NCBI GenBank assembly: GCA_003345545.1
Contig: PRDH01000026.1
Span: 32,001-96,000 of the forward strand
Length of the DNA stretch: 64,000 nucleotides
DNA from: Candidatus Thorarchaeota archaeon
GTDB taxonomy: Archaea; Asgardarchaeota; Thorarchaeia; Thorarchaeales; Thorarchaeaceae
Direction of reading: 5' to 3'
The notes below the pieces were generated by a model. The model ran no database searches. It was not told the DNA's origin and saw nothing but the letters and a program-made list of their open reading frames with translations. The number at the start of each line of letters is the position of its first letter. Within the stretch, counting starts at the first letter, position 1. Made by a program: the position numbers and the translations under genes. Of this stretch, positions 3,766 to 52,633 are shown in pieces.

Positions 3766-4134
3766 TTGGTTCCAATGCTTCATGAGCCAGATGACTTCAT
3801 TGGCAACATTCTTGGAAAGCTCCTGAATCGCCAATTAGAGAATCAACCGATGCGAGGCAAGGTTGGAAGATGGAGAATGTCCGTTGTTCTGGACACTGAC
3901 TACTACCCCATCTCAATAATCTTCAGTTATCACATTGAGATTGTTGCCGACTACGTTGATGACCCGACTATTGTACTCTCTATGAAGTTCAATACGATCA
4001 TTCGACTCTTTAGGGGCGAAACCTCAATGATAAGAGCTGTTCTCGGGGGTGCAATCAAGACTCGTGGTTTGCTGAAACACCCACTCTCGATGATCAGGTT
4101 CTACCGATTGATGACGTCGATATTGGGAGGATAG
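3766..4134 (+). CDS. SCP2 sterol/lipid-binding domain protein
   Basis: 122 aa with SCP2-like C-terminus (PTIVLSMKFNTIIRLFRGETSMIRAVLGGAIKTRG); 4 bp before the next gene. Confidence 0.7.
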   Translation: MVPMLHEPDDFIGNILGKLLNRQLENQPMRGKVGRWRMSVVLDTDYYPISIIFSYHIEIVADYVDDPTIVLSMKFNTIIRLFRGETSMIRAVLGGAIKTRGLLKHPLSMIRFYRLMTSILGG

Positions 4135-4138
4135 TCCA

Positions 4139-35695: not shown

Positions 35696-36044
35696 GTGGC
35701 TGGCTCCAGTTGAAGCCACGAACTCTGCCGGTGATTTAAACTAACTGATACTAGAAAAAAAAAGTCGTGATTGCAGCGACTGATTCCTTGAGGCCATTTG
35801 TTCGTAAACCTAACAATGCTGATTGCCATGTTGTCCAAGAAGAAGAACCACCCGCGATCTAAGGATGCGCCCTTGGGATGGATTCACAGAAATCCTGAAT
35901 TCATGAGCACTACTCCTCATTGCGATTTTTCGAACGGTTGTGAATTATATGGAATCACCATCTATTCATATACTAGTAATGACAAGATTGGCAAGTCAGA
36001 CGTACTGTCGTGAACATAGCTATGGCCATTGAGGAGATTAGCCA

Positions 36045-39000
36045 ATGAGAACTAAGAGAACTGTGGGACTAATTCTAGTAATTCTTCCTCTGATTCTGGG
36101 TATTATGATCTTGCCTCCTGGTTGGGCAATCGACTCAAAGCGTGGGTTAGATAGCGAGACTGTCGTCTTAGACAATGGCCAAAAGATTGTGGTAGCGCCC
36201 GATGAGGTGCTCATGAAGTACATCATCTCGGATTTGCCGACCTCAATGGCTGGAACAGGTGACCCATTGATTGCTTCAGAGTATGGAACGAGAATCGACT
36301 CGTTCATAGAACAGCGCATGGTCTATTATCCATCAGGAAGTATCACGACTGCTAACCTCTCGGTGCCCCTAGGCGAGCAGTGGGAAGGATATGGTGTCTA
36401 TGGAGACATCAGTAGTATAACAGAAAACCGTAGTTGGCTGGTCAATCAGGGCTTCAGCACAGATGCAACTTGGTCCTTCGAAACTCGATACGAGGAAGGG
36501 GATTTCAGTGGCAATAACAGAATGCATTACTTCACTCAAACAGGCACTAACGTAGGCACGTGGGGAACCAGAGGTACGGGAACGAGCCAATTCATTGATC
36601 CTTGGGGCGTCGCAATTGACTCCTCTGGCAACATCTACGTAGCTGATGCCTTCAACAACCGCATACAAGTCTTTACGAACACTGGCAGTTTCATTAGACA
36701 GTGGGGAAGCTATGGCATTGGAAATGGGCAATTCGACCGCCCCACAGGAGTTGCTGTCAACACCACAGGCTATGTATATGTTGTTGACCAAGGCAATGAT
36801 AGGGTGCAGGTGTTCAGTTCTACAGGTGTCTATCAGCGGCAATTCGGTACCTCGGGGATTGACAACGGTGAGTTCAGAAGTCCAACTGGTATAGCAATAC
36901 GCAACTCACTCGGATATGTATATGTGACAGACACAGGCAATGACCGTGTGCAGTACTTCAATTGGAATGGTGTACGACAAGGTGGTTGGGGCTCCACAGG
37001 GACAGGTAACAGCCAATTTCAGATGCCAACAGGAATCGCCGTCGACCAGGGCACTGGGCAGGTAGCTATCGCTGACAGTACCAACAATCGCGTTCAGAGG
37101 TTTACAGCTGCTGGAACATACTCTGGCCAGTTTGGCAGTCTTGGTGGCGGAAACACGAACTTTAGGACACCTATGGGAGTTGCCATCAACTCCACGACAG
37201 GTCGTATTTATGTGAATGACCTCGGCAATCACAGGATTTCTTACTTCTCCAACGCAGGTGCATATCAGGGACAATGGGGAACTGACGGAACAGGCACATC
37301 GAACCTACGCTTCAACTACGGTATCGCTGTAAGCCCGACGGGTAATGTGTACGTGAGTGAAGGCAGTGGTACTGAGAGGATGGATGCAAACTGGCTTTCA
37401 AACGGCCACGGAACGGGTAATCCATCTTCCATCTTTCAGATTGATGGCTACTGGCATGATGACCAGACTACGGATCTCTACGGATTCTGGTACAATCCTG
37501 GTGACAAAGCTTTTGCAAGACAGGACCTCGTAATCGAACGGGGCGAAGTGACGTGGGCTGGCATCTCCCTCGATTACTATGCAGACTGTCGCGGTTGGGG
37601 AACCTATATGACCGGGTTCTTTGAGCTCTTTGTATCGGTAGGCGATCCGGACCATGGTGGAAGCTACCTTTGGTCCAAGCAGTTTGACGATATTAATGAT
37701 GATAATATCTGGTACTCAACCGGACTTATCCCAATTGACTATTCTGACCTATCTCTGCCGAATGTAGAGATACTCGCAGGACTGAGAGTGACTGATAGCG
37801 AGTGGTATCGAGCAAGCGATATCCGACCTGAAGGCAGACTAGACAATATGGTCCTGTATATCAAAGCTAAGGCAACTCCTGATAACATTAATCTCCAGAT
37901 GAATGGAGTGGATGTCGATAATGTCTATAGTGGACCCACGCCAGTCTTTGGTCTCGGGACTGCTAGCTACGCGCCCTCGTTTCCATGGACATACGGCAAC
38001 GCCTATGCTAATTTCTCCTGGACCCCTGATGATAATCCCCCTGACCCGAATCTTGAGATATCCGTCTATATCGACGTTGATGTCAAGGTCTATGCACGTA
38101 GGTACAATGCAGTAACAGTCAATGACACTGAGCTTTTCAGCTATGGTGACAACTATGTCGTGCAGAACAGCACTACTGTCGAATGGACAACTAATCACTA
38201 CGTCGCGGTACCAGGAGGATACGAAGACGAGTTCTTCTACAATGTTTCCATACCACTGAATCGTGATATCACGTTCGTATCAGAACCCACGCAGCGATAT
38301 AGCAATCTTACGAATAGTTGGTATCTGGGCGACCCCGGTGATGGAGCTGTTAATATCTCAGTTTATGAGCTCGGACTCTCTGAACCTAACGGATTCTGGA
38401 TGATTCGCGGCGTTTCACCCAATATGGTGACGAATCTGCACGTGTGGGACAATGTGCTTGGTCAATGGGTTCAGACGAAGACCTTTAGGGCGGATGAGAA
38501 CACGAGATTCCGTGCTGTTCTGCCATCTGCGTACCAAGGTGACCTTGTCACTTTCACAATATATGACTCCCATGGAGAAGTCTGGGATACACTCACAGCT
38601 ACAGTGGACGTATCTGGCTACGCAATCAGCAATTATGTGAATCTTGATGCTGTCAGTGCACGAGTCGGTTCCTGGGAGGTACAAGCTTTTGTAGACGATC
38701 ATGATTCGGGCATCGAGGTGCACAATATTGGTTTCTTCCGTCGAGGTTTCTCTATTGACCATTCTACTCAATTATCAGTGAAGTACCCTGTCGAGGGCAG
38801 ACTGACCTGGGCTGTGAATGTGACCTATGGGGCTCTTGTCTTTCTCCAAATCCGTGTGAATGACAGCGATAATGGTGACCTGCTGGCCGCGGGCGTGATG
38901 TTATATTCTGGAGGATTTGGCAGTGGGACGGTCAGCGACCTTGGCACTGGTGAGTACAGTGTGACCCTGAATACCAACCTGCTGCCTTCAAATGGTGTCT

Positions 39001-42000
39001 ATGAAGTTGACCTAAGTTGGACCAAAGCCAACTACGATTCTCTCTTCGATACTTTTACAGTCTATGTCGTCTATGAAACAGAACTGCTATCTTCTGACGC
39101 ACCTGGTATAGATGTTGCAAGTGGAAACACTGCTGAGCTCCATGTCTACTTCCAGGACATGTTTACCAATCCAGTAGTTGGTGCTGCGGTTGTATGTAAT
39201 TGGACGCAAGGCTACACTGTGACACCAGATGGCTCCGGTAACTATCTATTGAGGCTGGATACGACAGGTGTGACTCTGAATCTTTATCGTGTTTCAATTA
39301 CCGCCTCAAAGAACTACTACCAATCTCGTTCCATCATTTTGAGTGTTGAAGTGCGCGAACTGCATACCTCTGCCATTCCATCAACAAGCTTCTTGTCGCT
39401 CCCTGTTGGCTATACAACCTCATTCACTATCACTTACAGAGATACTGATCTTCAGGTTCCAATTACTGGCGCGGCAAACACAATAAGCTGCAACTGGTCG
39501 GCTATTCATTCTGCTGGCGACCAGAACTACACTGTCACAGGAACTGCAACCCCGGGAGTCTATCAAGTATTGATCTACTCTATGGACGACGACGCACTAG
39601 ATTCCTATGATCTACTTTTCAGAGTTGAGCGATATGGTGCGCAGAATCACACATTCTTCGTGACAGTGGAACTGAGAACACATCTGACCTCGCTCTACCT
39701 TGACAACTCAGTCGAGCCCACACCCTACACTGGCAATATCACAGTCAATCTTGTCTATTACGATGTTGATGCGAACACGGGGATAGTCAATGGAACGACC
39801 TTGGGAGGCTATGTGGAGCTGATTATTACGAGCTCGACACTGCCCTATCCGACGTTCTGGATTGCCGGCATAAGTCCTGATGGACTCTATGCCATTCATA
39901 TTCCTGCAAATCAGTGGCCGGATGTTGGACAGATTACTCTTAGTTTCGAGGTCAACTGGATTGGTGTGAATCTCAAATACTCTAATTTGACCCTTTCAAC
40001 GAGTGCTCTGATAACAGCCGCTCCTACTGATCTCTTTATCGGAGAGAGCCCTGTCATAACGCCCTATGGAGAAGAAATCTCATTCAGCATCATCTATTTT
40101 GACATAGGGGCTGACACAGGAGTAGTCAATGCCACAGGACCGTACTCTGGAAATGTTCACCTGTTCATTGAAGTGCTGACCATTGGTGAAACACTCACAC
40201 AGTACGATATGACCATCCTTGAGATTGACTACACTGCGCGCCCCGGTGAGTATCGAATCACATTCGATTCATCGCTCTTGAGCGGGCTCGGGGCAGTCGA
40301 ACTCAAGATTTGGCTGAACTGGACGTATGCGGAGTTGCCATACTATCAGAATCAGGTCATTGTGGTCACAGTCTACTCTGCACACCGATTGACAACCGTT
40401 GACTGGACTCCACTTCCTCTCACACCGTACGATGAGCTTGTCAACCTCACCTTTACTTTCACAGACTCGCTCAGCGGGGCTCCCATCTCGAACAGTCCCC
40501 AACTTTCAATTGCTGTCCCTGCCTATCCGTCATTCAATATCTACTATCTCGGTGATATCACAGGCGTATTCATTGTTGAGATTGATACATCTCTGCTTAG
40601 CATTGGAAGTCAGACATTCTATCTCGATGTCATATGGACGGGAAGCCCCTACTACCAGAATAGGACAGGTGTCCAGATCTTCATATCAGTTAGAGAGAGA
40701 TACACGGACCTTACCCATGGGACCTACTCACCAATTCAGATAGGCAACACATTGCACCTCAACTTCACATATCGCGATCTCGATGACTATACATCGTTAG
40801 GAATGAATGGAGCTACACTTCTTCTTGATAGCTGGTTGGCCGGAAGCTACACAGTAGATGATCTTGGTAATGGAATGTACACACTGCACCTTGATACGAC
40901 TGCCTTCAGCACGATTGGAACAAAGATTGTGAACGTAACAATACTCTATGGAGGAAGTCGCAATTGTGCTGATGCCTATGACATATTCTATCTCACTCTT
41001 ACCATAAGGCGAACCCAGCTGACAAGCGACCTCCCTGATCTGGCGCCTTACCTAACCGAAGCTGTGATTGTCATCCATTACACGGATGATACAACAGATA
41101 CTGGTATCGTCGGGGCGACTGCGACAGCTGCTTGTGCTGCGGCAATTCAGACCCTGCAATTGAATGTCAACTACTGGGTTGACGACAACCTCGATGGAAG
41201 CTATAGTGTACGAATTCTTACCACTGCTCTAGGCAACTTCGGACCATATACAATCACCATCACAGTCACCTGGGACCTAGGCTGGCCATTCTATCAAGAG
41301 AGAGTCCGTGATGTGGACATTGAGGTTTCAAGGCGTCCCGCAACCGTCACAGTTTCCAAATCTCCTCTAAATACACCGTTTCTATCGAATGTGACATTCG
41401 AGATAGTTGTCACTGACCAACTTGATAGTACTGGAATCACTCTGAGCAAATCGAACCTGATTCTAACGCACGGAATAGGAGGCACCTTGATTAGTAATGA
41501 TCAGTATTCCATGGCTGGTTCAAATGGCATATACGTCATCTCCATCAATTCACTAGTTCTATCATCCGATCTCGAGGAAGACTATCCAATATTCATCTTA
41601 TTTGTCTGGGGTGACCTTACTCCGTACTATGCAAATGCATCATCCTCTACAGAAGTGTCCATTGTTGCACGATTCACTCAGGTCGCAGTGCTACAGACCC
41701 CGCCGGGCTATTACTACTTCAATGTCAGTGCTCTATTGCGTTTCAGCGACTACCTAACTGGTGCTCCAATTGCCGGCGCCACTGTCAGCGTGGCTTGCAC
41801 AAATACATCGAGTTTCGACTATTGGGTCGTCGACAATTCTGATGGTACCTACACAATACTAGTGGATTCGAACAGCCTAGCGGGTCTCGGCAGGTACTTC
41901 TTCCAAGCCAATTTCACATGGTCTGGCAGTCCGTTCTATCGCGACGTTATCGGCGTGAAATTCAGCATATCCGTAAATCCAGTATCTACAACCTTGAATT

Positions 42001-44744
42001 TTGTCCTACCTGAGGGAGTTACATACTATCTTGGCGATATGGTCTACGCCAACATTAGCTACACTGCTATTGCCTTTGGTACTGGAGTGGCCGGAGCTGC
42101 TATCACGACTGACTGGTTCACACGGTATGGGACCGGCAGTAGCATTGTGGAAATAGCACCTGGCATATACCAGATGTCAATCAATACATCTGGACTCAAT
42201 GCTCAGCTATATCGATTCATTGTAAATGCAAGCAAATACCTCCATTTGAGTCAGAGTATTGAGGCGGACATTCTTCTTGCAGCTGTGCCTGTCTTGTTGG
42301 AACTTGTCTTCACTCCTCAGAATCCCATGTGGGGTGATAGTGTGGCGTTCCAGGCAAATGTAACAGATGCAAGGACAGGTGCCCCGGTTGTCGGAGCATA
42401 TGTCAACCTGACCATTGGTCTGTTAGTATTTGATATGACGCCAGTTGCCGATGGTCTGTATAACTGCACAGTTCTCACTTCTTCATTGACCTCAGGTGAG
42501 TACACAATCGAGGTACAGTCGTCTCTACTTAACTACGAGACCGCGCAGCGAGATTTCCAGATCCGCATTGAAAAAATCGCCGCAAAGATTTTTGCGTCCA
42601 TCGATCCAATCTCTGCTGTTAATGGCCAGACGGTCATTGTCCATGTCGATTACCTCGAGTACGCAACCGGTCTTCCAATCTCCGTGGATGGAGTGGTTGA
42701 ATTCTCATGGATCGGTGGCAGCGGCTTCATTGGCTGGTCAGCTGGCGATGACAAATATGTTGGTTCCTTTATCGTGACTGGAGCTGCCGTTGGTAACCAC
42801 CATATTCTCATCCAGGCCTCCTCCCCTAACTACAAGAGCGTCAGTACTGTGGTAACAATTGAAATCACAGAGATAAACACGCAACTCGTCCCGATATCAA
42901 ACACAGTTATCTCCGGCAACTACAGAGATATTGTCAATATCACCGTGTATCTGAACAATACTGATCTCAATCTACCAGTTGATGGCGCTACTCTCAGTTT
43001 TGGAGTGGGCTCTATCGTTGGCAATCTCATAGAGTTGACAGCTCCAGGCTACTACAGTGCTTTAGTGGATACATCGTTCCTGAGTGTGCAAGAATGGACC
43101 GTGTCTATATCTAGTGTCAAACCTGGATTCACTCCATCTCAATTCGACTTCACGCTGACAGTTGAACAGATCGAGACTACGATTGTGATTCTCACTAGTG
43201 GTACAGTTTCAGGCTACTACGGTGAGATCGTGACATTCAACTTCTTGTTCAATGATACTCATGCTAACGAAGGAATATCCGGCGCAATCACGAACTACAC
43301 TTTAGAACAGACACATGGATCGCTTGTGGACAATGGAGATGGAACCTACAGTCTGACTCTGAACACTTCTATTGCATCCGCTGGAGCGATACCGCACGAC
43401 ATATCTTTGACTTTCAGGAAAGAGAACTACCGCTTCGCCTATGGACTCGCCAAGCTTCTCGTGATGCCCGTCCCCACACAAATCGAAGGTCCTCTTGAAG
43501 CTGAGTATCCAATATATGACAACTATTCAATGCTTTTCAGTTTCAGGGACACACTTAATGATGCTTGGGTCACTGATGCAGTTGCAACAGCAGTATGGGA
43601 ATTCGGCACTGCGACTCTGACGAATCTCGGAAATGGTTCGTACATGTTTGGTCCTCATGAAGCGAATCTGTCGACACCTCTTCAGTACAGAGAACTCTCC
43701 TACAGGATCAGGATATCACTCTCAAGAGCAAACTATACCAGGATGGAGATTGAGCATTATTTGACCATTCGTAGAATCCTGACAGAGACGGTCTCTGCTG
43801 CGCCAACCTCAGCTATCTATGTTGGAGATGTGTTCCTTGTCAATGTCACTTTTTGGGACGCCGACCATGGCATAATGATCACTGATGCTATCATCAATGT
43901 TATCACTAGCAGCCAGGTTGATAACGGACTCATCCATGAAATTAATTTGGACATCAACTGGGGTAATGGGACCTATACGATTGCTCTCCGTGCACCTAAC
44001 TTGGCGTTCTATAGCCTCCGCATTGATTTCAGTAAGGCGGACTATCAGACTTCGTCAGTGGAGCTCGATATCTACGCTAGGCTAAGTCCCGAACAGGAAG
44101 CACTTGCGAGGGGCTTCGAGTACTCAGCAATTGGAATACTTGCGCTCGCGGCTCTCGCAACCCTGTACATCAAGGTGCTGTCGGTTCCAAAGCTGCTTCG
44201 GACTCTTAGACGGATGGTGGCAGTTCTTGGTAGAGGCCGCATACCAAAACCCGCCAATGTTCCAGTACGACGTAACATGCTGCTGGCGATGATGAAAGAG
44301 GAGCTTGCAGGTGTGGCGGTCGTGAAGACCATTGAGGATATTTCAGTTTCGACAGTTGATGTAGCTGCTATGGATGTCGAGGCTCTGCTTGAGGACCTTG
44401 CAACAGTTGTTGGTCTGACAGCGAGCGATGTTGACACTCTTAGGAGAGATCTTGACCAGATGAGGCCGAGTGAACGTGCTGGCTTCATCAATGAAGTCTT
44501 GAAGCAAGAACGTGCTAGACGGGCAAAGGAGCTTGCCGAAACCGAGGGTGTCACACCCGAGAAACGCCCAAGCACCGAAGTTGAGGAGAAGCTCTCTGAT
44601 GAGGAGCTCAAACACCTCAAGGAGCGATTGATGAAGATGGGAATTGCGGAAACTGAAGCAGATCTTATGGTCGAACAGGCGCGTAATTTGTCTAGGGCCG
44701 AGATAGATGCACTACTTCGTGAAATAGGAGGCTCAGAAGAATGA
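36045..44744 (+). CDS. Giant (2899 aa) type I membrane surface protein: head with NHL beta-propeller insert, Ig-like stalk, TM, helical cytoplasmic tail
   Basis: Signal peptide; six NHL repeats (F..P.GVA....G.IYV.D..N.RVQ.F) at about 36500-37360; repeated ~100-120 aa beta modules; TM near 44130-44180. Confidence 0.9.
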   Translation: MRTKRTVGLILVILPLILGIMILPPGWAIDSKRGLDSETVVLDNGQKIVVAPDEVLMKYIISDLPTSMAGTGDPLIASEYGTRIDSFIEQRMVYYPSGSITTANLSVPLGEQWEGYGVYGDISSITENRSWLVNQGFSTDATWSFETRYEEGDFSGNNRMHYFTQTGTNVGTWGTRGTGTSQFIDPWGVAIDSSGNIYVADAFNNRIQVFTNTGSFIRQWGSYGIGNGQFDRPTGVAVNTTGYVYVVDQGNDRVQVFSSTGVYQRQFGTSGIDNGEFRSPTGIAIRNSLGYVYVTDTGNDRVQYFNWNGVRQGGWGSTGTGNSQFQMPTGIAVDQGTGQVAIADSTNNRVQRFTAAGTYSGQFGSLGGGNTNFRTPMGVAINSTTGRIYVNDLGNHRISYFSNAGAYQGQWGTDGTGTSNLRFNYGIAVSPTGNVYVSEGSGTERMDANWLSNGHGTGNPSSIFQIDGYWHDDQTTDLYGFWYNPGDKAFARQDLVIERGEVTWAGISLDYYADCRGWGTYMTGFFELFVSVGDPDHGGSYLWSKQFDDINDDNIWYSTGLIPIDYSDLSLPNVEILAGLRVTDSEWYRASDIRPEGRLDNMVLYIKAKATPDNINLQMNGVDVDNVYSGPTPVFGLGTASYAPSFPWTYGNAYANFSWTPDDNPPDPNLEISVYIDVDVKVYARRYNAVTVNDTELFSYGDNYVVQNSTTVEWTTNHYVAVPGGYEDEFFYNVSIPLNRDITFVSEPTQRYSNLTNSWYLGDPGDGAVNISVYELGLSEPNGFWMIRGVSPNMVTNLHVWDNVLGQWVQTKTFRADENTRFRAVLPSAYQGDLVTFTIYDSHGEVWDTLTATVDVSGYAISNYVNLDAVSARVGSWEVQAFVDDHDSGIEVHNIGFFRRGFSIDHSTQLSVKYPVEGRLTWAVNVTYGALVFLQIRVNDSDNGDLLAAGVMLYSGGFGSGTVSDLGTGEYSVTLNTNLLPSNGVYEVDLSWTKANYDSLFDTFTVYVVYETELLSSDAPGIDVASGNTAELHVYFQDMFTNPVVGAAVVCNWTQGYTVTPDGSGNYLLRLDTTGVTLNLYRVSITASKNYYQSRSIILSVEVRELHTSAIPSTSFLSLPVGYTTSFTITYRDTDLQVPITGAANTISCNWSAIHSAGDQNYTVTGTATPGVYQVLIYSMDDDALDSYDLLFRVERYGAQNHTFFVTVELRTHLTSLYLDNSVEPTPYTGNITVNLVYYDVDANTGIVNGTTLGGYVELIITSSTLPYPTFWIAGISPDGLYAIHIPANQWPDVGQITLSFEVNWIGVNLKYSNLTLSTSALITAAPTDLFIGESPVITPYGEEISFSIIYFDIGADTGVVNATGPYSGNVHLFIEVLTIGETLTQYDMTILEIDYTARPGEYRITFDSSLLSGLGAVELKIWLNWTYAELPYYQNQVIVVTVYSAHRLTTVDWTPLPLTPYDELVNLTFTFTDSLSGAPISNSPQLSIAVPAYPSFNIYYLGDITGVFIVEIDTSLLSIGSQTFYLDVIWTGSPYYQNRTGVQIFISVRERYTDLTHGTYSPIQIGNTLHLNFTYRDLDDYTSLGMNGATLLLDSWLAGSYTVDDLGNGMYTLHLDTTAFSTIGTKIVNVTILYGGSRNCADAYDIFYLTLTIRRTQLTSDLPDLAPYLTEAVIVIHYTDDTTDTGIVGATATAACAAAIQTLQLNVNYWVDDNLDGSYSVRILTTALGNFGPYTITITVTWDLGWPFYQERVRDVDIEVSRRPATVTVSKSPLNTPFLSNVTFEIVVTDQLDSTGITLSKSNLILTHGIGGTLISNDQYSMAGSNGIYVISINSLVLSSDLEEDYPIFILFVWGDLTPYYANASSSTEVSIVARFTQVAVLQTPPGYYYFNVSALLRFSDYLTGAPIAGATVSVACTNTSSFDYWVVDNSDGTYTILVDSNSLAGLGRYFFQANFTWSGSPFYRDVIGVKFSISVNPVSTTLNFVLPEGVTYYLGDMVYANISYTAIAFGTGVAGAAITTDWFTRYGTGSSIVEIAPGIYQMSINTSGLNAQLYRFIVNASKYLHLSQSIEADILLAAVPVLLELVFTPQNPMWGDSVAFQANVTDARTGAPVVGAYVNLTIGLLVFDMTPVADGLYNCTVLTSSLTSGEYTIEVQSSLLNYETAQRDFQIRIEKIAAKIFASIDPISAVNGQTVIVHVDYLEYATGLPISVDGVVEFSWIGGSGFIGWSAGDDKYVGSFIVTGAAVGNHHILIQASSPNYKSVSTVVTIEITEINTQLVPISNTVISGNYRDIVNITVYLNNTDLNLPVDGATLSFGVGSIVGNLIELTAPGYYSALVDTSFLSVQEWTVSISSVKPGFTPSQFDFTLTVEQIETTIVILTSGTVSGYYGEIVTFNFLFNDTHANEGISGAITNYTLEQTHGSLVDNGDGTYSLTLNTSIASAGAIPHDISLTFRKENYRFAYGLAKLLVMPVPTQIEGPLEAEYPIYDNYSMLFSFRDTLNDAWVTDAVATAVWEFGTATLTNLGNGSYMFGPHEANLSTPLQYRELSYRIRISLSRANYTRMEIEHYLTIRRILTETVSAAPTSAIYVGDVFLVNVTFWDADHGIMITDAIINVITSSQVDNGLIHEINLDINWGNGTYTIALRAPNLAFYSLRIDFSKADYQTSSVELDIYARLSPEQEALARGFEYSAIGILALAALATLYIKVLSVPKLLRTLRRMVAVLGRGRIPKPANVPVRRNMLLAMMKEELAGVAVVKTIEDISVSTVDVAAMDVEALLEDLATVVGLTASDVDTLRRDLDQMRPSERAGFINEVLKQERARRAKELAETEGVTPEKRPSTEVEEKLSDEELKHLKERLMKMGIAETEADLMVEQARNLSRAEIDALLREIGGSEE

Positions 44745-47700
44745 AGAACACCAGGCGATTGGTTCCAATTATCCTCCTCGTAGCACTGATGATAGCGCCT
44801 CTCTTCCTTACTCCGCAGGCATCAATTGCTGTAGCTACTCCCAACCTTGATGCAGACACATCTAGCGATGTTCGTATAGTCGATATTGGGAATGGTGAAT
44901 TCATTGAGTTGGCACCCGATGAGGAGCTGCATAGGTTCGTTCTCTCAGACCAAGGCTGGACTGAATGGACCGGCTTCAGCGACCCTCTCAACGGCTCCGA
45001 ATTCGGAAATAGCACCAACATCTTCCTTGACAGACAAATGACGTATATTCCAGGTTCTGGCACAAGTTCTGTTCAAACCGGTATTTCCATGGGCGTTGGC
45101 TGGGAATCATACGAAACCAGAGTCCAGATTACTAGCCTGACTGAGAATAGAACATGGATAACGAATCCAGGATTCCAGGATAGTGAGAGTGGCTGGACAG
45201 TATCAAACACAGACCTTGGTTCTTCCAGCACGACTACATCTTCATGGCTTAATGATGGGCATGGAGTGAATGATGATTGCATACAGGTTGATATAAACTC
45301 TGTAGGCTCCGTTCCACCCTACTACTACGATGATGGTGATATTTCTGCATATGAGCAAGCGACAACAGTGACTCGTGGCGCGGTCGTTTGGTCAGCCCTT
45401 CGTCTAGATTATTGGGCAGATACAGTGGATGATACTCATTACGGGATGACTGGCTCATTCCGACTTTTCACGAATGTTGAGGGCACTGACATCTGGAGAA
45501 GAGTATTCACTGATATCGGAGCTGAAGAAACATGGTACAACACAGGTCTTGTTACTGTCATCCCCTCGATATTCGGGCTACCAGGCGATGCAACGGTAAC
45601 CACGCGAATCGGTCTGGAATCACTTGTTGCTGTGGGTTATGACCCGAATATTCATCCTCGGGCAAGGTTTGATAACGTCGAGCTCTTTCTCAAGACTCTG
45701 GTCAATCCAAGTGAGATTACCCTTCGAATGAATGGCCTGACAGTGAGCGATGGCGCATCACGAGGGATCTGCGCGATAACGCAAATTCCGGCTACTCCAT
45801 GGACAACATCGCCCGTGCTGCTCACATTCTCATGGACTCCGATTCCTTCACCACCAAATCCAAACAAAGTAGTCAGAATTGACTTCAACGTGAACGTGAA
45901 TATGTTCGCGCGACGCTATGATGTTTCCAGTCTTTATGAGATCGGTCCCACCTCATATGGTGAGAGATTCATCGTAAGAAATGGAACGAACGCCGAGTTC
46001 ACTTCTTATTTCAGAGCCGATATACCCACGGGGTATGCAAATCGCTATTTCTTCAACGAAACAATACCAATGGAACGTGATATCTATTCTGTTGCGCAAC
46101 CACTTGCTCCAGCAACAAATCTCACGAGCGGATGGACTGGAGGGAATCCAGGAGATGGTTTCTTCAACGTATCAACCTATGATATCACCAATGAGCCTGG
46201 AAGATTCGGTTACTGGAGAATCCTAAGCAGTTCTCCCAACATGATTTCTGACCTGGAATTATGGAATCCCGACATAAGTGGTTGGGCGCGGACGGTCGAC
46301 CTGAGAGCAGGAGATACGACGAGAGTACGCGCGGATGTCGGAGCTGAGTTCGCTGGATCGACTGTCACAATCACAATATACAAACCAGACGATTCTGTGT
46401 GGTTAACCTTGAGCCCGATAGTTGATGGAGCAGGTTATGCTACATCTACGACGTTCGCCCTCGATGGCTCTTCTGCTCCTGCTGGCAGCTGGATGGTTCA
46501 GGCGACTACAAACAACGTAGGAGCTGATGGCGAGTGGACTTCAGTCGGTCTATTCAAGAGACCTTTCACAATCACACATGCCTCTGATATCACCCTGACA
46601 TACCCAGCGGATGCTGTGGGAACGATGTTGACCAATGTGACTTTTGGAGATCTCTTGCTGATCATCCTGGAAGTCGAGGACACCGACAGCTATTCACCCA
46701 CAGTCCTTGTTCCAGGAGGCACGCTGACTCTTGACTGGGTCTTGGGTAGTGATACGTTCGATGACAATAGAAATGGTCAATACACCAAAGTCATCGATAC
46801 AGCACTTCTTCCTGGCAGTGGCAATTATGTGATGGGTCTGGACTGGACTCACCCCAACTTCGATGCTTCCAATACTGCGCTTACGATAAATGTGAACTAC
46901 GCTGCCACATTGACCTCTCCAGATTATCCAGGTATCTCTGGTCCTGTTGGTGATGACCAGTCATTCATAGCAATATTCGCGAATGTGAATGGAACCGGAA
47001 TCACAGAGGGAGAGCTATGGTGTGATTGGTCCAATCCTTACACAGTAGTCCCACTGGGAACTGGCCAGTTCGAATTTCAGCTGGACATGGAAGATATCCC
47101 CATTGGTGAATATCCGATTCATGTCTACGCAACGGGCCCCTTCATTGAGCCGCAAACAATGCTGATGTACGTGGGAGCAAGAGAGATCTATAGTTCTATC
47201 ACGTACACCTCTAGCCAGCTGTCGATACCGCTTGGTGAAGCATCTTCATTCCTTCTAACATGGACCGATACTGACCATGGAACACTGATCGCAGGTTCCG
47301 CCTCATCTATAACCTGCAACTGGACATCGTTCCATACATCAGGCGATACGAACTACACGGTCGTCGAGGTTTCGCCAGGAAAGTACAACATAAGTATCTT
47401 CACAAAATCCAGTGATCCTCTGACAGGATCGGATTTCTTTGACGTACGTTTCAATGTAATGAAGGATGACTATCAGAATCACACCTTTGATATCGCTGTT
47501 GAGATTCGGAAGAGGAACACTCTCTTTGTCTTGGATGCACCGATTGTACAGACTCCCTATGGAAGTCCAATAACTGTTCTTGTCTTCTACCAAGATACAG
47601 ACCTTCGAGTTGGCATTGGAAACGTCACAGGAGAAGTGAGACTAACCATCACTTCATCAGAATTGGGAGGCATAGTATATACAACTGCAGCATCCTCTCT

Positions 47701-50700
47701 GGGTCTTGGACATTACAACATCACCATCCCGAGCGACCAGTGGGGGAGCATTGGGTGGAAAGACCTGCACCTTCTTATTGAGTGGAGCGGAGTTGTTGAC
47801 AAGTTCTATAGTCAAACGATAGACACCAGCGCAAGAATAACTGGTACTGATACTGATTTGTATCTTGAACTCGCACCGACTGCTACCTACTACTTGAACA
47901 CCTTCAACTTCACGGTGATTTATTGGGACACCGTAGGCCTGCTGAGGATTAGCAATAGCACGAACAACGTGTTTCTACACATCATGGCACTTGGTGCGGG
48001 CAATTCAGTGACTCAGAGCGATTTCACAGTGACTGAATCTGCATCGGTCCCTGGTACGTACATTTTCGTTCTTGGCAGTTCGCTATTCTCGAGTACAGAT
48101 ACATTTCGATTTGAGTTGTCCTTCATGTGGAAGAAAGGACAGAGTCCTCTCTATGAGAATGGAACTATGGTCGTTTCGCTCATTCTGTTGGATAGGCCTA
48201 CATATGTTGACTATACACCTGTCGCTTCGACTCCCTATGGCGAACAAGCTGAATTTCTCTTCAGCTTTGTTGATACTCTGACTTCAGTGAAGATCGCAAA
48301 TTCATCTCAATTGTACATAGACTTGAATGATTTAGGTGTAATATTCACTTACTCGTATAATCCAGTTACTAAGGAGTTCACATTGTACATAGATACTGCA
48401 TCGATTGGCAGCATAGGACCTCATGATCTTCACCTGAATGTGACTTGGATTGGAGCACCATTCTATGCTTCTATTCAAAGCAAGATATTCTCTGTCAGCG
48501 TGATCACAAGAGCGACGCAGCTCTCTCACCTATCCTTTAGCCCTGGGCAGTGGGGCAACAACATCACAATTGTCTTCATCTATACAGACATAGTAGCAGG
48601 CTCTACTACTGGCATGACTGGTACATTGACACTGAATATCGCAGCGGACAAGTATAGTGTGGTTTACAGTCCAGAGGGACGATTCATTGTTACCTTGAAC
48701 ACGACGGCCTTTCTTGGAGATGGAGAGTATTCTGTAACGGCAGTTGTTGTCCATACGTTTGCGTATTATGCTAACGCAACCGAGATATTCGATATTTCGG
48801 TACTCAAACGGTCTACGCAACTTGGCTATGACAGCCCGGATCCTGCACCGTATGCATCGAATGCTACACTTTATGTAACCTATGTCGATGACAGTACGGG
48901 AAGAGGTATTCCAGGAGCTAGCATTGCTATCTCCGGAAACAGTACCTATGCACTCGTCCTGAATTCCAATTATTGGTTCACGTACATAGGAAATGGTCGC
49001 TATCTCATCGAAGTCGATACGGCCGCTCTTGGCGCGCCAGGCTATTACCTCCTCACTGTTTCAGTCACATTTACAGGAGAACCGTTCTATCTTCCTGGCT
49101 CGAGAGATGTATTGACAAGGGTCACTTTGAGAACAACTCAGATTCTGATAACCCAGACTCCCGGAAGCGTTTCCTTCCTTGAAAATGTGGTCTTCAGATT
49201 CAAGTTCACTGATTACTTGCTGGGCACCAAGATTGCGATTACTAAGAGCCACATCACTCTCACACACGGCGAATACCCCTACACAGAGATTGCATCCGGA
49301 AGTTACTTCCTCTATGAGTATGCAACGTACTACGAGATAGTATTCAACTCAACCATTGTCAGTCCCGACACTCTCGTCACTGGACACCCTATTCAAATGA
49401 CAATCGATCTGGGTTCTGGCGTCCCCTATTATGCGCCTAGAAGTACTTCAACAACTGTATCGACAGTTGAGCGACCAACGCAGATTCTGTTTCCACTTGT
49501 GGAAGACACTCCCTACTTTGATAATATCACCATAGAGCTCAGTTACGTCGATTACTTGACAGGAGCCGGCATTGACGGCGCGAACCTGCTGATAGCAAGT
49601 GGTAACTGGTCGTCGCCTCAATACACGTTGTTCCGCGAGGGCGATGGCACCTACAGAATCCTCATCAATAGTAGCGTATTTGGAAACACTGGAACTGTCT
49701 TCTTTGACATCACTCTCAGCAAGTCAGGTGCACCGTTCTACTCAACCAGGGCTACCCTCGGTGTTCCAGCAACCATTAGGGAGGTACAGACCTCTCTCGT
49801 CGCGGACGCTCCTCCTGCTGGTTCCACAGCTGTGGGAGCACCTATCGAGGTCCTGCTTACGCTAGTTGATTTTGACCATGACTTGCCCCTATCAAATGCA
49901 GTCATCACCAGTGACTGGACGGCACTCTTTGGCAGGAGCTATACAGTGGTAGAACTGGGGAATGGTGCCTACACAATCACCCTCACCACAACTGGACTGC
50001 TTGCACAGAGGTATGACTTTCACGTCTATGGTGACAAACCGTTCTATCAGACTGCAGTGGCAGGAGTATTTGTTCAACCCGGTGCAGCCACAGTCGAGAT
50101 ATTCTTGGAGAGGAGCACCTACTACGCAGATTGGGGCGAACTAGTCAATATCACATTTCAAGTTCGGGAACCCTATTACAGCACGCCTGTCACTGGCATG
50201 ACTGCATCTCTTCTTTGGCAAGGCATGCTCTATGGCTTCAGCGAGGTCGGCAATGGCTATTACACGCTGTTGCTTGATTCGTCAGATACTAACTTTGGCG
50301 TCTATGCTCCGCAGATATCTGTCACGAAGCAGTACTATCAACCAAGGCAGACAACATTCAATCTCATAGTGTCAAAAGCTACAGGACAGATCATTCCTGA
50401 CTTTTCGAGTTATCAGGTTGTGATTGACACTTCAATAGACATCCAGCTGTTTCTGAATGACACTGTTTCTGGAATGCCTGTGACCACGGCGACAGTGACA
50501 ATGGAGTTCAATAGTACAGTCTATCTGCTCACTCATCTCGGTGCAGGTGTCTATTCTGGTGACTTGCTTGTATCCGGTTTTGCGATTGGGCAATATCCAC
50601 TCACAATCAGAGCTATCTCTCTCAATCATATGTTCCTGGAAACCATCGTTGGCATCAACGTTGTCCCAATTTACACCGAAGTGAAGTTGGTGAGTGGCGC

Positions 50701-52498
50701 TACGGTTTTGACAGTCTATTTCGGTGACACGTTGAACATACTTGCGATCTATAACGACACGTACTATAATGCGCTAGTGAGTGGGGCTAGTGTGATCTAT
50801 ACCCTTGGAAGCCTCACCGGCACATTGACCGAGGAAACAAATCACACCTATAGTGCTGTGATTGACGTGAGCTCCCTGCCATCCCAATCAATCTACCTGC
50901 GGTTGACTGCTACGAAGTTCGGCTACTCGACCACAACGAAATCGATCATCGTGACAATCCTTCCGATTCCAACTTCTGCGACTGTTGATGAAGCCAGCAC
51001 GTTGGAGAGCGGATATTTCGGCGCTCCGCTCAGCTTCAAGTTCTATTACGATGACCTTCAGCACTATGTAGGCATCGGAGGAGCTAATGTGATTGCCAGC
51101 TGGGAAGGAGGTACACCAACTGTAACTGACTATTCTAACGGGACATACAGAGTTGACTTGGTCATCACTGTGACAATTCCAGGTATCTATGATTTAGTTG
51201 TAAGGTTCGACCTTCAGAACTACACAACAAGAACAGCGATAGCTAGGATTGAGGTCTATGCCACTCCCGCCGCAATCTACGGTCCAACCACCTACTCATC
51301 GCCGATCAATGATACCATCGTGATTCCTTATCATGTGAAGAATATGTTGGACAATAGCACCATATCGGATGTGATTGGATTCGCATCATCCTCTCAATTG
51401 GGTGAATACGAGCTTCTGTTACTGCCAAATGGCAACTATACCCTGAACCTCCCTGGCGACCTACAGTACGGAACTTACGGTTTTGATGTCTATTTCGCCA
51501 CAACGAAATACACTATGTCTCCCATTCATGTGGATGTTACGGTGCGGACGATCCTGACAGCAGCTCTGCATGGAAATCTGACTATTCGAACCCAGCCTGG
51601 AGTGTCTTTCTCCTTTACTGTGACATATATGGACTTGGACCATAATGTTCCGATCAGCGGAGGAAGTCTGTCCTTAGAACTAGACCCTCAAGCGATTACC
51701 TACTACAACCAATCTATGCTCGATGAAGATGGAACGTACACATTGTACTTCTTCGCGAAAGGCGGCGGAACCCACTCGATTGTCATCAATATTGTAAAGG
51801 AGGGTTATGTCGCTCAGCAAGTCAGACTGTCGATTCAGTCAGACATCTCTGCAGAGCAAGCCTTCCAGCAGTTGGTTACAACAGCCGTAGGATCCGGAGT
51901 TCTCATAGTAGCCCTGCTTCTAGTAGCCTATGTGAAAGTGTGGAGTATTCCAAAACAGATACGCATCATGAGCCGTATGATTCGAGCGCTGGCGAAAGGT
52001 CATGTGCCAAAGGCTGCTAAAGCCCCAACTAGACAAGACATAGCTATGACTATTGTCAATGAAGAGATAGCTTCAATGCACCTAGTGAAACCCAGAGAGG
52101 ACATAGCTCCGGAACCAATAGTAACAACGGTTCCAGAGGTTAATGAGCTATTAGAGGAACTCGCATCTATCACTGGACTGGGTGAGGCTGAGATTGATGC
52201 GTTCAAGGCTGACCTCTCTCGAATGAGGGCCAGCGAGAGACCCGGATTCCTCAAGGAAGTGATTGACCAGGAGAAGGCTCGTCGCGCTGACGTCTTGGCA
52301 AAGCCCGCGAAGGTGGTCGCCAAGAAAGAGCAAGTTCCTTTGCAGGACTTGCCTGGTGAGCTAGAGGACCTACGGAAGAAACTACTCAAGAAGGGCATGG
52401 CAAGTGATGAGATTGACATCATCCTAGAGGAGGCCAAGGGTCTCTCGAAGGCGGATCTTGAAGCACTGCTGGATAGCTTGGGTATTAGCTTGGACTAG
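44741..52498 (+). CDS. Giant (2585 aa) type I membrane surface protein, paralog of the upstream gene without NHL insert
   Basis: Colinear motifs with the upstream protein (ELAPDE, TENRTW, WLNDGHG, SPNM, ITCNW, SVPK/SIPK, MRxSER); ATGA overlap. Confidence 0.9.
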   Translation: MKNTRRLVPIILLVALMIAPLFLTPQASIAVATPNLDADTSSDVRIVDIGNGEFIELAPDEELHRFVLSDQGWTEWTGFSDPLNGSEFGNSTNIFLDRQMTYIPGSGTSSVQTGISMGVGWESYETRVQITSLTENRTWITNPGFQDSESGWTVSNTDLGSSSTTTSSWLNDGHGVNDDCIQVDINSVGSVPPYYYDDGDISAYEQATTVTRGAVVWSALRLDYWADTVDDTHYGMTGSFRLFTNVEGTDIWRRVFTDIGAEETWYNTGLVTVIPSIFGLPGDATVTTRIGLESLVAVGYDPNIHPRARFDNVELFLKTLVNPSEITLRMNGLTVSDGASRGICAITQIPATPWTTSPVLLTFSWTPIPSPPNPNKVVRIDFNVNVNMFARRYDVSSLYEIGPTSYGERFIVRNGTNAEFTSYFRADIPTGYANRYFFNETIPMERDIYSVAQPLAPATNLTSGWTGGNPGDGFFNVSTYDITNEPGRFGYWRILSSSPNMISDLELWNPDISGWARTVDLRAGDTTRVRADVGAEFAGSTVTITIYKPDDSVWLTLSPIVDGAGYATSTTFALDGSSAPAGSWMVQATTNNVGADGEWTSVGLFKRPFTITHASDITLTYPADAVGTMLTNVTFGDLLLIILEVEDTDSYSPTVLVPGGTLTLDWVLGSDTFDDNRNGQYTKVIDTALLPGSGNYVMGLDWTHPNFDASNTALTINVNYAATLTSPDYPGISGPVGDDQSFIAIFANVNGTGITEGELWCDWSNPYTVVPLGTGQFEFQLDMEDIPIGEYPIHVYATGPFIEPQTMLMYVGAREIYSSITYTSSQLSIPLGEASSFLLTWTDTDHGTLIAGSASSITCNWTSFHTSGDTNYTVVEVSPGKYNISIFTKSSDPLTGSDFFDVRFNVMKDDYQNHTFDIAVEIRKRNTLFVLDAPIVQTPYGSPITVLVFYQDTDLRVGIGNVTGEVRLTITSSELGGIVYTTAASSLGLGHYNITIPSDQWGSIGWKDLHLLIEWSGVVDKFYSQTIDTSARITGTDTDLYLELAPTATYYLNTFNFTVIYWDTVGLLRISNSTNNVFLHIMALGAGNSVTQSDFTVTESASVPGTYIFVLGSSLFSSTDTFRFELSFMWKKGQSPLYENGTMVVSLILLDRPTYVDYTPVASTPYGEQAEFLFSFVDTLTSVKIANSSQLYIDLNDLGVIFTYSYNPVTKEFTLYIDTASIGSIGPHDLHLNVTWIGAPFYASIQSKIFSVSVITRATQLSHLSFSPGQWGNNITIVFIYTDIVAGSTTGMTGTLTLNIAADKYSVVYSPEGRFIVTLNTTAFLGDGEYSVTAVVVHTFAYYANATEIFDISVLKRSTQLGYDSPDPAPYASNATLYVTYVDDSTGRGIPGASIAISGNSTYALVLNSNYWFTYIGNGRYLIEVDTAALGAPGYYLLTVSVTFTGEPFYLPGSRDVLTRVTLRTTQILITQTPGSVSFLENVVFRFKFTDYLLGTKIAITKSHITLTHGEYPYTEIASGSYFLYEYATYYEIVFNSTIVSPDTLVTGHPIQMTIDLGSGVPYYAPRSTSTTVSTVERPTQILFPLVEDTPYFDNITIELSYVDYLTGAGIDGANLLIASGNWSSPQYTLFREGDGTYRILINSSVFGNTGTVFFDITLSKSGAPFYSTRATLGVPATIREVQTSLVADAPPAGSTAVGAPIEVLLTLVDFDHDLPLSNAVITSDWTALFGRSYTVVELGNGAYTITLTTTGLLAQRYDFHVYGDKPFYQTAVAGVFVQPGAATVEIFLERSTYYADWGELVNITFQVREPYYSTPVTGMTASLLWQGMLYGFSEVGNGYYTLLLDSSDTNFGVYAPQISVTKQYYQPRQTTFNLIVSKATGQIIPDFSSYQVVIDTSIDIQLFLNDTVSGMPVTTATVTMEFNSTVYLLTHLGAGVYSGDLLVSGFAIGQYPLTIRAISLNHMFLETIVGINVVPIYTEVKLVSGATVLTVYFGDTLNILAIYNDTYYNALVSGASVIYTLGSLTGTLTEETNHTYSAVIDVSSLPSQSIYLRLTATKFGYSTTTKSIIVTILPIPTSATVDEASTLESGYFGAPLSFKFYYDDLQHYVGIGGANVIASWEGGTPTVTDYSNGTYRVDLVITVTIPGIYDLVVRFDLQNYTTRTAIARIEVYATPAAIYGPTTYSSPINDTIVIPYHVKNMLDNSTISDVIGFASSSQLGEYELLLLPNGNYTLNLPGDLQYGTYGFDVYFATTKYTMSPIHVDVTVRTILTAALHGNLTIRTQPGVSFSFTVTYMDLDHNVPISGGSLSLELDPQAITYYNQSMLDEDGTYTLYFFAKGGGTHSIVINIVKEGYVAQQVRLSIQSDISAEQAFQQLVTTAVGSGVLIVALLLVAYVKVWSIPKQIRIMSRMIRALAKGHVPKAAKAPTRQDIAMTIVNEEIASMHLVKPREDIAPEPIVTTVPEVNELLEELASITGLGEAEIDAFKADLSRMRASERPGFLKEVIDQEKARRADVLAKPAKVVAKKEQVPLQDLPGELEDLRKKLLKKGMASDEIDIILEEAKGLSKADLEALLDSLGISLD

Positions 52499-52539: not shown

Positions 52540-52633
52540 CCCCTACCGATCAGTAGATACCTCTGAATTTCGATGGAGCTCACTGAGGGAGGCTCCATTT
52601 ATACAATGGAGAACAGTTAAGTAAGTATCAAGC

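What the first reader, a model, noticed from the sequence alone, without database searches (positions are those of the whole stretch)
36045..52498. Translationally coupled pair of colinear giant proteins, a candidate heterodimeric adhesin/receptor
Seen: 16.5 kb, two paralogs overlapping by ATGA (44741-44744). Each has signal peptide, head, long repeat stalk, one TM and a ~185-aa tail. Their lengths nearly match once the ~290-aa NHL insert is subtracted. They appear diverged (no long DNA identity noticed) yet keep stalk module order. Inference: coupling plus matched length suggests a 1:1 side-by-side heterodimer with one ligand-binding subunit (a loose analogy to alpha/beta integrin-type pairs, not homology).
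Basis: partly seen in the sequence, partly recalled or inferred. Interest (0 to 1): 0.75.

Follow-up and report, generated by a model that had tools for sequence, protein, structure and literature searches.

The report
Paired giant Thorarchaeota surface proteins
Two overlapping genes of an uncultured Asgard (Thorarchaeota) archaeon encode ancient sister proteins, each a sugar-coated surface rod about 2,600 residues long with a conserved inner tail. Related genomes keep the two genes together, in the same order and co-translated, so they very likely work as one unit, but physical pairing has not been shown.

Summary
A (36045-44744, 2899 aa) and B (44741-52498, 2585 aa) overlap by ATGA and are colinear paralogues (32% identity, no DNA similarity). 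Each has a signal peptide, a beta-rich head, exactly 17 Ig-like stalk modules, one TM helix and a ~185-aa helical cytoplasmic tail that matches no described family. A's extra length is a 284-aa NHL propeller inserted in a loop of the head.

New here:
- The A/B split predates the family's radiation (A and B clades each 100% support across 6-7 genera).
- Gene order, start/stop overlap and an internal GGAGG motif are kept throughout.
- All 36 pairs examined have 17+17 modules, while related singletons have 9 to 33.
- A and B differ most in membrane-proximal modules 11-16, which orthologues conserve.
- The locus is chromosomal (conserved tRNA-synthetase neighbour), not an aloposon.

A physical 1:1 heterodimer remains inference. 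A shared loop deletion proved to be an indel hot-spot, other family members live as singletons, and pairs arose more than once.

Tandem giant genes in Thorarchaeota were mentioned by Wu et al. 2022. This scan had already found the same pair in several other Thorarchaeota genomes, with similar conclusions.

The parts
36031..36036 (+). GAGGAG Shine-Dalgarno-like motif 8 nt upstream of the start of A
   Evidence: read directly from the sequence
36045..44744 (+). gene A: 2899-aa type-I giant surface protein (signal peptide, head with NHL insert, 17 modules, TM, tail)
36045..36131 (+). A signal peptide or N-terminal hydrophobic segment (residues 1-29)
   Evidence: hydropathy scan
36510..37361 (+). 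NHL beta-propeller insert in A (residues 156-439), absent from B and from most A orthologues
   Evidence: Pfam NHL 5.7e-34; alignment gap boundaries; two length classes of A orthologues
38784..44063 (+). A stalk: 17 diverged Ig-like modules of about 96-121 aa each (residues about 914-2673)
   Evidence: module HMM
44124..44186 (+). A transmembrane helix
   Evidence: hydropathy scan
44187..44741 (+). A cytoplasmic tail (about 185 aa): VPK...IPKP juxtamembrane motif and two three-helix modules
   Evidence: alignment A4; homologous B-tail model
44727..44731 (+). GGAGG motif inside A's last codons, 9 nt before B's ATG; conserved in all orthologous junctions within the family (weaker AGAGGG in the other-family genome G025)
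44741..44744 (+). ATGA start/stop overlap of A and B
   Evidence: kept as ATGA, GTGA or TAATG in other genomes
44741..52498 (+). gene B: 2585-aa type-I giant surface protein, paralogue of A
45143..45703 (+). B head: carbohydrate-binding-module / MAM / Eph-LBD-like jelly roll (residues 135-321); the NHL of A is inserted at the equivalent of B residue about 161
   Evidence: AF2 model pLDDT 73.5; VIA-align Z 9-11, e.g. 4d0q Z 10.9 rmsd 3.0 over 138 residues
46235..46600 (+). B head: macroglobulin (MG2)-like Ig domain (residues 499-620)
   Evidence: VIA-align: complement C5 7op0 Z 11.5, rmsd 1.7 over 97 residues
46601..51826 (+). B stalk: 17 Ig-like modules
51881..51949 (+). B transmembrane helix
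51950..52495 (+). B cytoplasmic tail: juxtamembrane helix, three-helix module 1, acidic linker, three-helix module 2
   Evidence: AF2 model pLDDT 73; no PDB, Pfam or Atlas match

Best explanation
A and B are an anciently duplicated, co-translated pair of giant type-I, N-glycosylated surface proteins of Thorarchaeia that act as one unit at the cell surface.

Each protein is exported by a Sec-type signal. It projects a head on a rod of 17 Ig-like modules, is anchored by one C-terminal TM helix, and ends inside the cell in a conserved folded ~185-aa helical tail. The head holds a CBM-like jelly roll and an MG-like Ig domain; in A of this genome it also holds an NHL propeller.

The stop/start overlap with an internal GGAGG motif delivers the two proteins together and in a fixed ratio. 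I think they most likely assemble in register into a hetero-oligomer, either a dimer or a higher-order bundle. The heads would bind external glycans or partners, and the tails would dock a still unknown cytoplasmic component.

Shown: the architecture, topology signals, paralogy, age of the duplication, conserved order and coupling, fixed module number, and chromosomal vertical inheritance.

Inferred: physical A-B association, ligand type, and the tail's partner.
For: - Architecture and topology.
- Taxon: Thorarchaeota, and every homologue is named 'hypothetical'.
- Pair conservation: A and B tails lie about 7.7 kb apart on one contig in 12 genomes. Pairs also occur in genera g15, g21, g23, g24, g26, g27 and g28. 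NCBI locus tags are adjacent in at least 9 MAGs.
- Age of the split: the upstream genes of 6 genera form one clade (100) and the downstream genes of 7 genera form another (100).
- Coupling: ATGA or GTGA in 11 of 11 genus junctions, and TAATG, ATGA or GTGA in 5 further genera, always with GGAGG 8-12 nt upstream.
- Module number: 17+17 in 12 loci and 24 database pairs. The sister subfamily of singletons has 9, 10 and at least 27 modules, and other paralogues have 21-33.
- Asymmetric specialisation: A-versus-B identity falls to 19-30% in modules 11-16, where orthologues keep 50-71% (Spearman rho -0.72, p 0.001).
- Stable chromosomal site: the aminoacyl-tRNA synthetase gene lies downstream of B in 10 of 10 genus loci.
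- By analogy (PySLP, bioRxiv 10.64898/2026.08.21.746120): membrane-proximal Ig domains of a colossal archaeal surface protein do associate laterally.
Against: - No direct evidence of A-B contact was obtained.
- Deletion of the same module-3 loop in A and B of one clade is not obligately coupled: of 24 pairs, 2 lost it in A only and 2 in B only.
- Equal module number may be passive. The modules are diverged from one another, so there is no substrate for slippage, and both genes descend from one 17-module ancestor.
- Family members work as singletons in many genomes.
- Pairs C/D, E/F and the G025 pair are each other's closest relatives, so tandem duplication or homogenisation recurs in this family.
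- Overlapping start/stop codons are common in prokaryotic operons whether or not the products bind each other (general knowledge).
Confidence: 0.6

Rival explanations
1. Independent paralogues. A and B are co-transcribed duplicates that sit side by side in the membrane but do not bind each other. Each is a separate surface fibre with its own ligand specificity (A with NHL, B without). Matched length is inherited rather than selected for pairing.
For: - Singletons of the same family exist.
- Tandem duplication recurs (C/D, E/F, the G025 pair, and a triple array in G035).
- Indels in A and B are not obligately coupled.
- Heads and distal modules evolve faster than the rest, as expected for diversifying binders.
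Against: - Order, adjacency and start/stop overlap have been kept since before the radiation of at least 7 genera.
- No contiguous locus shows A or B alone.
- Strict 17+17 modules, while relatives vary from 9 to 33.
- Paralogue-specific yet conserved membrane-proximal modules.
Confidence: 0.25
2. Two-component S-layer-like coat. A and B are the building blocks of a regular or semi-regular surface lattice (for example mixed pillars). They would work like colossal Ig-rich S-layer proteins such as PySLP, and would not be a discrete 1:1 receptor.
For: - Fold matches of head and stalk domains to S-layer proteins: Haloferax csg 7ptp Z 10.8, SlaB 8qox Z 9.7, and the Nitrosopumilus S-layer 8c8l by Foldseek.
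- PySLP has 19 Ig-like domains, a C-terminal TM and a hexameric pillar made of its membrane-proximal domains.
- The family is present in 82 of 87 genomes of the class.
Against: - The long folded acidic cytoplasmic tail is unlike the short basic tail of PySLP-type proteins.
- The only imaged Asgard relative lacks an ordered S-layer (PMC9834061).
- Genomes carry several different family members, not one dominant protein.
- Some genomes seem to lack A/B altogether: G024 (99% complete) and G097.
Confidence: 0.12
3. Cargo of an aloposon-like mobile element. The tandem giant genes belong to an integrated element like those of Heimdallarchaeum (Otus/Ephialtes).
For: Wu et al. [quoted passage not shown]
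Against: - No tRNA gene anywhere in the 64-kb window.
- No ParA/MinD among the flanking genes, which are housekeeping or surface genes.
- G+C is flat across the window.
- The tRNA-synthetase neighbour is conserved in 10 of 10 genus loci.
- The A and B trees are consistent with vertical descent across genera.
Confidence: 0.02

Closest known systems
[quoted passage not shown] 2022, Nat Microbiol, PMC8813620)
   Same: Two adjacent giant genes that are homologous to each other, in an Asgard genome. The Thorarchaeota cases mentioned there (over 3000 aa) probably correspond to the C/D or E/F pairs of this same family.
   Different: A and B are below 3000 aa. They sit at a conserved chromosomal site next to a tRNA-synthetase gene, with no tRNA integration site and no ParA-containing upstream cassette. 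The paper did not analyse architecture, tail, coupling or module number.
PySLP-type colossal S-layer proteins of Thermoproteota (bioRxiv 10.64898/2026.08.21.746120)
   Same: A giant archaeal type-I surface protein built from about 19 Ig-like domains with a C-terminal TM helix. Its membrane-proximal Ig domains associate laterally between copies.
   Different: PySLP is a single gene forming homo-hexamers, with a short, highly basic tail ending in lysine and a crown/lattice core. Here there are two paralogous genes, a CBM-like head with or without NHL, and a 185-aa folded acidic tail. No sequence relationship was tested.
Bacterial fibrillar giant adhesins with Ig-like (Big/MG-like) repeat stalks (from general knowledge, e.g. 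SiiE, LapA, MpIBP; fold match to 6xi3, 'extending region of large adhesion protein', Z 10.0)
   Same: Head-stalk-anchor logic: a distal sugar-binding-type domain on a long rod of Ig-like repeats.
   Different: Those have near-identical repeats whose number varies, are exported by T1SS or are wall-anchored, and have no TM plus cytoplasmic domain. Here the modules are diverged, their number is fixed, and the protein is a Sec-exported type-I membrane protein.
Integrin alpha/beta heterodimers
   Same: Two single-pass type-I subunits of similar height, one with a beta-propeller head, and cytoplasmic tails that could dock intracellular partners.
   Different: Integrin subunits are not paralogues of each other. 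The FG-GAP seven-bladed propeller and the beta-I/VWA domain are not detected. Heterodimerisation is not shown here.
Sulfolobus SlaA/SlaB two-component S-layer
   Same: Adjacent genes encode two surface proteins that assemble together. SlaB has Ig-like domains and a membrane anchor (fold match 8qox Z 9.7).
   Different: SlaA and SlaB are not paralogues, only SlaB is anchored, and neither has a folded cytoplasmic tail.

Membership tests
NHL repeat beta-propeller (Pfam PF01436) | Multiple NHL repeats scoring above the Pfam gathering threshold | tested here: met
   A residues about 185-440: E 5.7e-34, 114.9 bits against a cut-off of 20, five repeats. NCBIfam scyF_NHL is below its cut-off. B has none.
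Aloposon giant-gene pair (Wu et al. 2022) | Integration at a tRNA gene downstream of the giant genes | tested here: not met
   No tRNA in the 64-kb window. A tRNA-synthetase gene lies downstream in 10 of 10 genus loci.
Aloposon giant-gene pair (Wu et al. 2022) | Four conserved upstream genes, including a MinD/ParA-like ATPase | tested here: not met
   The upstream genes are a CoA-ligase-like protein, an LRR protein, a LamG-type receptor, a PALP enzyme and PPDK.
Aloposon giant-gene pair (Wu et al. 2022) | Sequence homology to Otus or Ephialtes | not tested
Integrin alpha/beta | Alpha subunit with an FG-GAP seven-bladed propeller; beta subunit with a beta-I (VWA-like) domain and MIDAS; subunits not homologous to each other | tested here: not met
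   Pfam finds only NHL (six-bladed type) in A and nothing in B. A and B are 32% identical paralogues.
PySLP-like colossal S-layer proteins | Tandem Ig-like domains followed by a C-terminal TM helix | tested here: met
   17 Ig-like modules plus an MG-like domain plus one TM.
PySLP-like colossal S-layer proteins | Short, highly basic cytoplasmic tail ending in lysine | tested here: not met
   The tail is about 185 aa, net acidic, folded into helical modules, and ends in E or D. The PySLP feature is as described in the paper.
PySLP-like colossal S-layer proteins | Conserved beta-hairpin between the last Ig domain and the TM; profile-level sequence homology | not tested
   No model of the module-17-to-TM junction was made, and no PySLP sequence was at hand.
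Alpha-2-macroglobulin / complement C3 family | MG-domain fold | tested here: met
   B residues 499-617 against C5 MG2: Z 11.5, rmsd 1.7 over 97 residues. Pfam MG2 is only sub-threshold.
Alpha-2-macroglobulin / complement C3 family | Thioester motif (CGEQ-type) and a thioester domain | tested here: not met
   No C[GLAS]EQ motif in A or B, and no TED or A2M Pfam hit.
Thorarchaeial 'tailed giant' family (undescribed; defined here by the cytoplasmic tail) | C-terminal TM followed by the VPK..R...IPKP motif, helical module 1 (..LL..L...M..SE..F..EV..QE) and helical module 2 | tested here: met
   Invariant columns in alignment A4 across A, B, C, D, E and S. The profile finds 175 representative clusters in 1.84 billion proteins, always at the C-terminus. 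It is present in 82 of 87 genomes of the class.

The most novel reading that the evidence does not exclude
A and B form an obligate, in-register hetero-oligomer: a prokaryotic two-chain adhesion receptor that arose by duplication of a homo-oligomeric ancestor. Its paralogue-specific membrane-proximal modules 11-16 make the interface. Its undescribed folded cytoplasmic tails couple binding outside the cell to an Asgard intracellular system such as the actin cytoskeleton or membrane-remodelling machinery. That would make it a functional analogue of eukaryotic paired adhesion receptors in the archaeal lineage closest to eukaryotes.
Probability: 0.2. Interest if true: 0.8.

Novelty: new variant of a known kind. 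Interest (0 to 1): 0.5.

Why it matters
Cultured Asgard archaea have no ordered S-layer. They carry unidentified 'complex surface proteins' thought to mediate the cell-cell contacts relevant to eukaryogenesis (PMC9834061), and Thorarchaeia are still uncultured.

This locus gives concrete, conserved candidates for such structures. It is a family of giant single-pass glycoproteins found in nearly every Thorarchaeial genome. It has a folded cytoplasmic domain absent from domain and structure databases, and one sub-lineage (A/B) has been kept as a co-translated pair for a very long time.

If the two chains do assemble and the tail docks an intracellular partner, this would be a prokaryotic outside-in adhesion device. 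Even if they do not, the tail domain and the fixed 17-module ruler are defined targets for structural and proteomic work.

Tried and rejected
1. Complex prediction on A (module 17 + TM + tail, alignment A2) against B (same region, A3) returned no verdict: score 0.00, controls not run. This is neither support nor evidence against binding.

2. Indel co-variation. Five of about 23 lineage-fixed indel runs coincide in column and direction between A and B. They include an identical 7-8-aa loop deletion in stalk module 3 in clade G002/G005/G006, with no sign of gene conversion. I first read this as co-evolution. I rejected it after 24 database pairs showed the loop lost in A only (2), B only (2), both (4) or neither (15); one further pair had a truncated A. 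It is an indel hot-spot.

3. 'B without A' in six genus genomes turned out to be truncation at contig ends (contigs of 3.9-8.8 kb), so it is uninformative.

4. Unpaired A/B-like tails in G097 and G049 looked like counter-examples. The tree places them in a third subfamily, not in A or B.

5. Tail function. Pfam up to E 10, NCBIfam, PDB sequence profiles, Foldseek against PDB (best E 0.9, generic three-helix repeats) and the ESM Atlas gave nothing usable. SHOCT, UBA and Pex14-like resemblances are by eye only and unsupported.

6. The sigma-70 promoter and terminator scan is not meaningful for an archaeon.

Neighbourhoods of distant database orthologues were therefore examined through the genome search and the fetch from genomes.

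8. The aloposon / mobile-element reading was rejected.
Full report
OBSERVATION

The window holds two long + strand ORFs, A at 36045-44744 (2899 aa) and B at 44741-52498 (2585 aa). They share the four bases ATGA. BLASTP aligns them colinearly over 2466 residues at 32% identity with few gaps, and blastn finds no DNA similarity.

A hydropathy scan finds exactly two hydrophobic segments in each protein, one at the N-terminus and one about 185 residues before the C-terminus. N-glycosylation sequons are enriched before the TM (A 47 seen, 29 expected; B 41 seen, 21.6 expected) and almost absent after it. That fits a type-I topology with a glycosylated ectodomain.

Pfam recognises only the NHL repeats of A (E 5.7e-34).

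ANATOMY

A module HMM built iteratively from one stalk repeat finds exactly 17 modules in A and 17 in B. Module-specific periods (96-121 aa) are nearly the same in both.

An AlphaFold2 model of the B head (residues 1-725, 19-sequence alignment, mean pLDDT 73.5) is all-beta. VIA-align resolves two domains:
- A jelly roll of the carbohydrate-binding-module / MAM / Eph-LBD type at residues 135-321 (for example 4d0q Z 10.9, 8zqf Z 10.8, 2zew Z 10.2, 2c9a Z 9.0).
- A macroglobulin-type Ig domain at residues 499-617 (complement C5 MG2 Z 11.5, rmsd 1.7 over 97 residues). Archaeal S-layer proteins also match here (7ptp Z 10.8, 8qox Z 9.7).

There is no thioester motif. The NHL propeller of A is inserted in a loop of the jelly roll.

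The tail model (pLDDT 73) shows the TM helix, a basic juxtamembrane helix, a further helix, a three-helix module, an acidic linker and a second three-helix module. Nothing in Pfam, NCBIfam, PDB (by sequence or by fold) or the ESM Atlas matches the tail. Its profile finds only 175 representative clusters among 1.84 billion proteins, always at the C-terminus.

ORGANISM AND FAMILY

Named homologues are all 'hypothetical protein' from Candidatus Thorarchaeota MAGs.

The tail family occurs in 82 of 87 genomes of the class and in 17 of 17 genera. Only weak relatives occur in a few other Asgard families, and most sampled families gave no hit.

The window's own genome has a third member, C, of 4119 aa on contig C19. 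Its expected partner is lost at the contig end.

Within the genus there are three pair types:
- A/B.
- C/D: about 4100 + 3170 aa, 22 and 21 modules, with a 195-nt gap between the genes.
- E/F: 3400-6200 + about 3950 aa. In G006 these two also overlap by ATGA with a GGAGG upstream.

IS THE PAIR CONSERVED?

Yes. In every locus where the contig spans the junction, A is followed by B. That covers 11 genus genomes plus G025 from another family, and also genera g15, g21, g23, g24, g26, g27 and g28.

The junction is ATGA, or GTGA in G001, in all 11 genus loci. In five other genera it is TAATG, ATGA or GTGA. A GGAGG motif always lies inside A's last codons.

A tree of the last stalk modules plus the tail puts the upstream genes of six genera in one clade and the downstream genes of seven genera in another, each with 100% support. 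The duplication is therefore older than the radiation of the family, and the gene order has never changed.

A tRNA-synthetase gene follows B in 10 of 10 genus loci. There is no tRNA gene, no ParA and no compositional anomaly. This is a chromosomal locus and not an aloposon of the kind described by Wu et al. 2022 (PMC8813620). [quoted passage not shown]

IS LENGTH MATCHED, AND DOES THAT MEAN ANYTHING?

B orthologues are 2552-2600 aa. A orthologues fall into two classes: 2552-2631 aa without NHL and 2870-2900 aa with NHL. The NHL form is scattered through the clade and is present in several other genera. All 12 loci and all 24 database pairs (matched by source contig) have 17+17 modules.

Relatives vary. 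The sister subfamily of singletons has 9, 10 and at least 27 modules, and others have 21-33. Stalk length can therefore change in this family, yet it has not changed in A or B. That suggests constraint.

It is not proof of pairing, though. The modules are strongly diverged from one another, which removes the recombination substrate that makes repeat numbers unstable in bacterial adhesins. Both genes also simply descend from one 17-module ancestor.

TESTS FOR CO-EVOLUTION

In the clade G002/G005/G006, both A and B have lost the same 7-8-residue loop of module 3. The flanks stay clearly A-type in A and B-type in B, and the outgroup keeps the loop in both. Across the whole length, five of about 23 lineage-fixed indel runs coincide between A and B.

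On wider sampling the loop is also lost in A alone or in B alone. It is a hot-spot, and I do not count it as evidence of contact.

A more robust pattern is regional. Orthologue identity is 50-71% along the whole stalk. A-versus-B identity, however, falls from about 35% in the head and modules 1-10 to 19-30% in modules 11-16 (rho -0.72, p 0.001). Each paralogue has thus acquired, and then conserved, its own membrane-proximal stalk.

This is what a hetero-specific lateral interface would look like. It would also fit two different membrane-proximal partners. In the solved PySLP S-layer, the six membrane-proximal Ig domains are where the copies associate.

COUNTER-EVIDENCE

- Family members live as singletons in many genomes.
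- C/D are closer to each other (42%) than A is to B.
- The two G025 genes are 44.5% identical to each other but only 35-38% identical to either A or B of this genus. Tandem duplication or homogenisation therefore recurs.
- Some genomes seem to lack A/B altogether: G024 (99% complete), G097 and G049.

VERDICT

The reading 'conserved co-translated functional unit of two giant surface proteins' is well supported. The reading 'side-by-side 1:1 heterodimer' remains an inference, which I put at roughly 0.3 for a strict heterodimer and about 0.45 for any hetero-oligomer.

The thing is a new variant of a known kind, the giant Ig-repeat single-pass archaeal surface proteins. Three features distinguish it: an ancient coupled paralogue pair, a fixed 17-module stalk, and an undescribed folded cytoplasmic tail.

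The same pair has already been reported by this scan from several other Thorarchaeota genomes with concordant conclusions.

Noticed in passing
window 28881-32381 (+): Residues about 520-910 of the upstream 1166-aa surface protein (LamG/longin receptor in earlier notes) give tblastn matches of 22-26% identity to the head regions of A and B orthologues. This neighbour therefore shares a head domain with the giants while carrying a different cytoplasmic domain.
   Followed up: partly
G000 contig C19:75498-87857 (locus L020): A third family member, C (4119 aa, 21-22 modules, extra head of about 840 aa). In G001 it is followed after 195 nt by D (3162 aa, 21 modules). In the window's genome the contig ends 271 nt after C, so D is probably unassembled.
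   Followed up: partly
loci L021-L024 (G014:C13, G006:C87): Pair E/F. The head of E varies from about 2500 to 3200 aa between species, while F stays at about 3950 aa. The tail of F carries four tandem copies of the C-terminal three-helix module. In G006, E and F also overlap by ATGA with a GGAGG upstream.
   Followed up: partly
G090:C25:13955-14758 and G091:C5:71766-72569: In two genomes of one genus, a family member of about 5000 aa is read through a single in-frame TAG. This could be a conserved recoding event, a split gene or a shared assembly feature.
   Followed up: no
stalk module 3 of A and B (window about 39500-39530 and 47325-47350): The loop with the H..GD.N motif after the conserved NW[ST] has been lost repeatedly and independently, in A, in B or in both, across Thorarchaeia. 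Its conserved His/Asp pattern hints at a dispensable ion- or ligand-binding site.
   Followed up: partly
database proteins P0106/P0013 and P0109/P0012 (locus tags EU527_06785/80 and EU527_02725/30); G075:C22: Some genomes carry two A/B pairs, one with the NHL insert and one without. G075 has three A/B-type tails on one contig. The pair itself has therefore been duplicated as a unit.
   Followed up: no
window 52574-52597 (+): An inverted repeat, TGGAGC...GCTCCA, followed by TTTATAC lies between B and the tRNA-synthetase gene. It may be a transcript end for the A-B operon and/or a TATA box for the next gene (seen by eye only).
   Followed up: no
locus L027 (G035:C24:84000-103000): A distant Asgard family has three tandem genes (1414, 1512 and 2162 aa; 4-11 modules) with a divergent version of the same tail. 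Tandem arrays of this family are therefore not limited to Thorarchaeia.
   Followed up: partly
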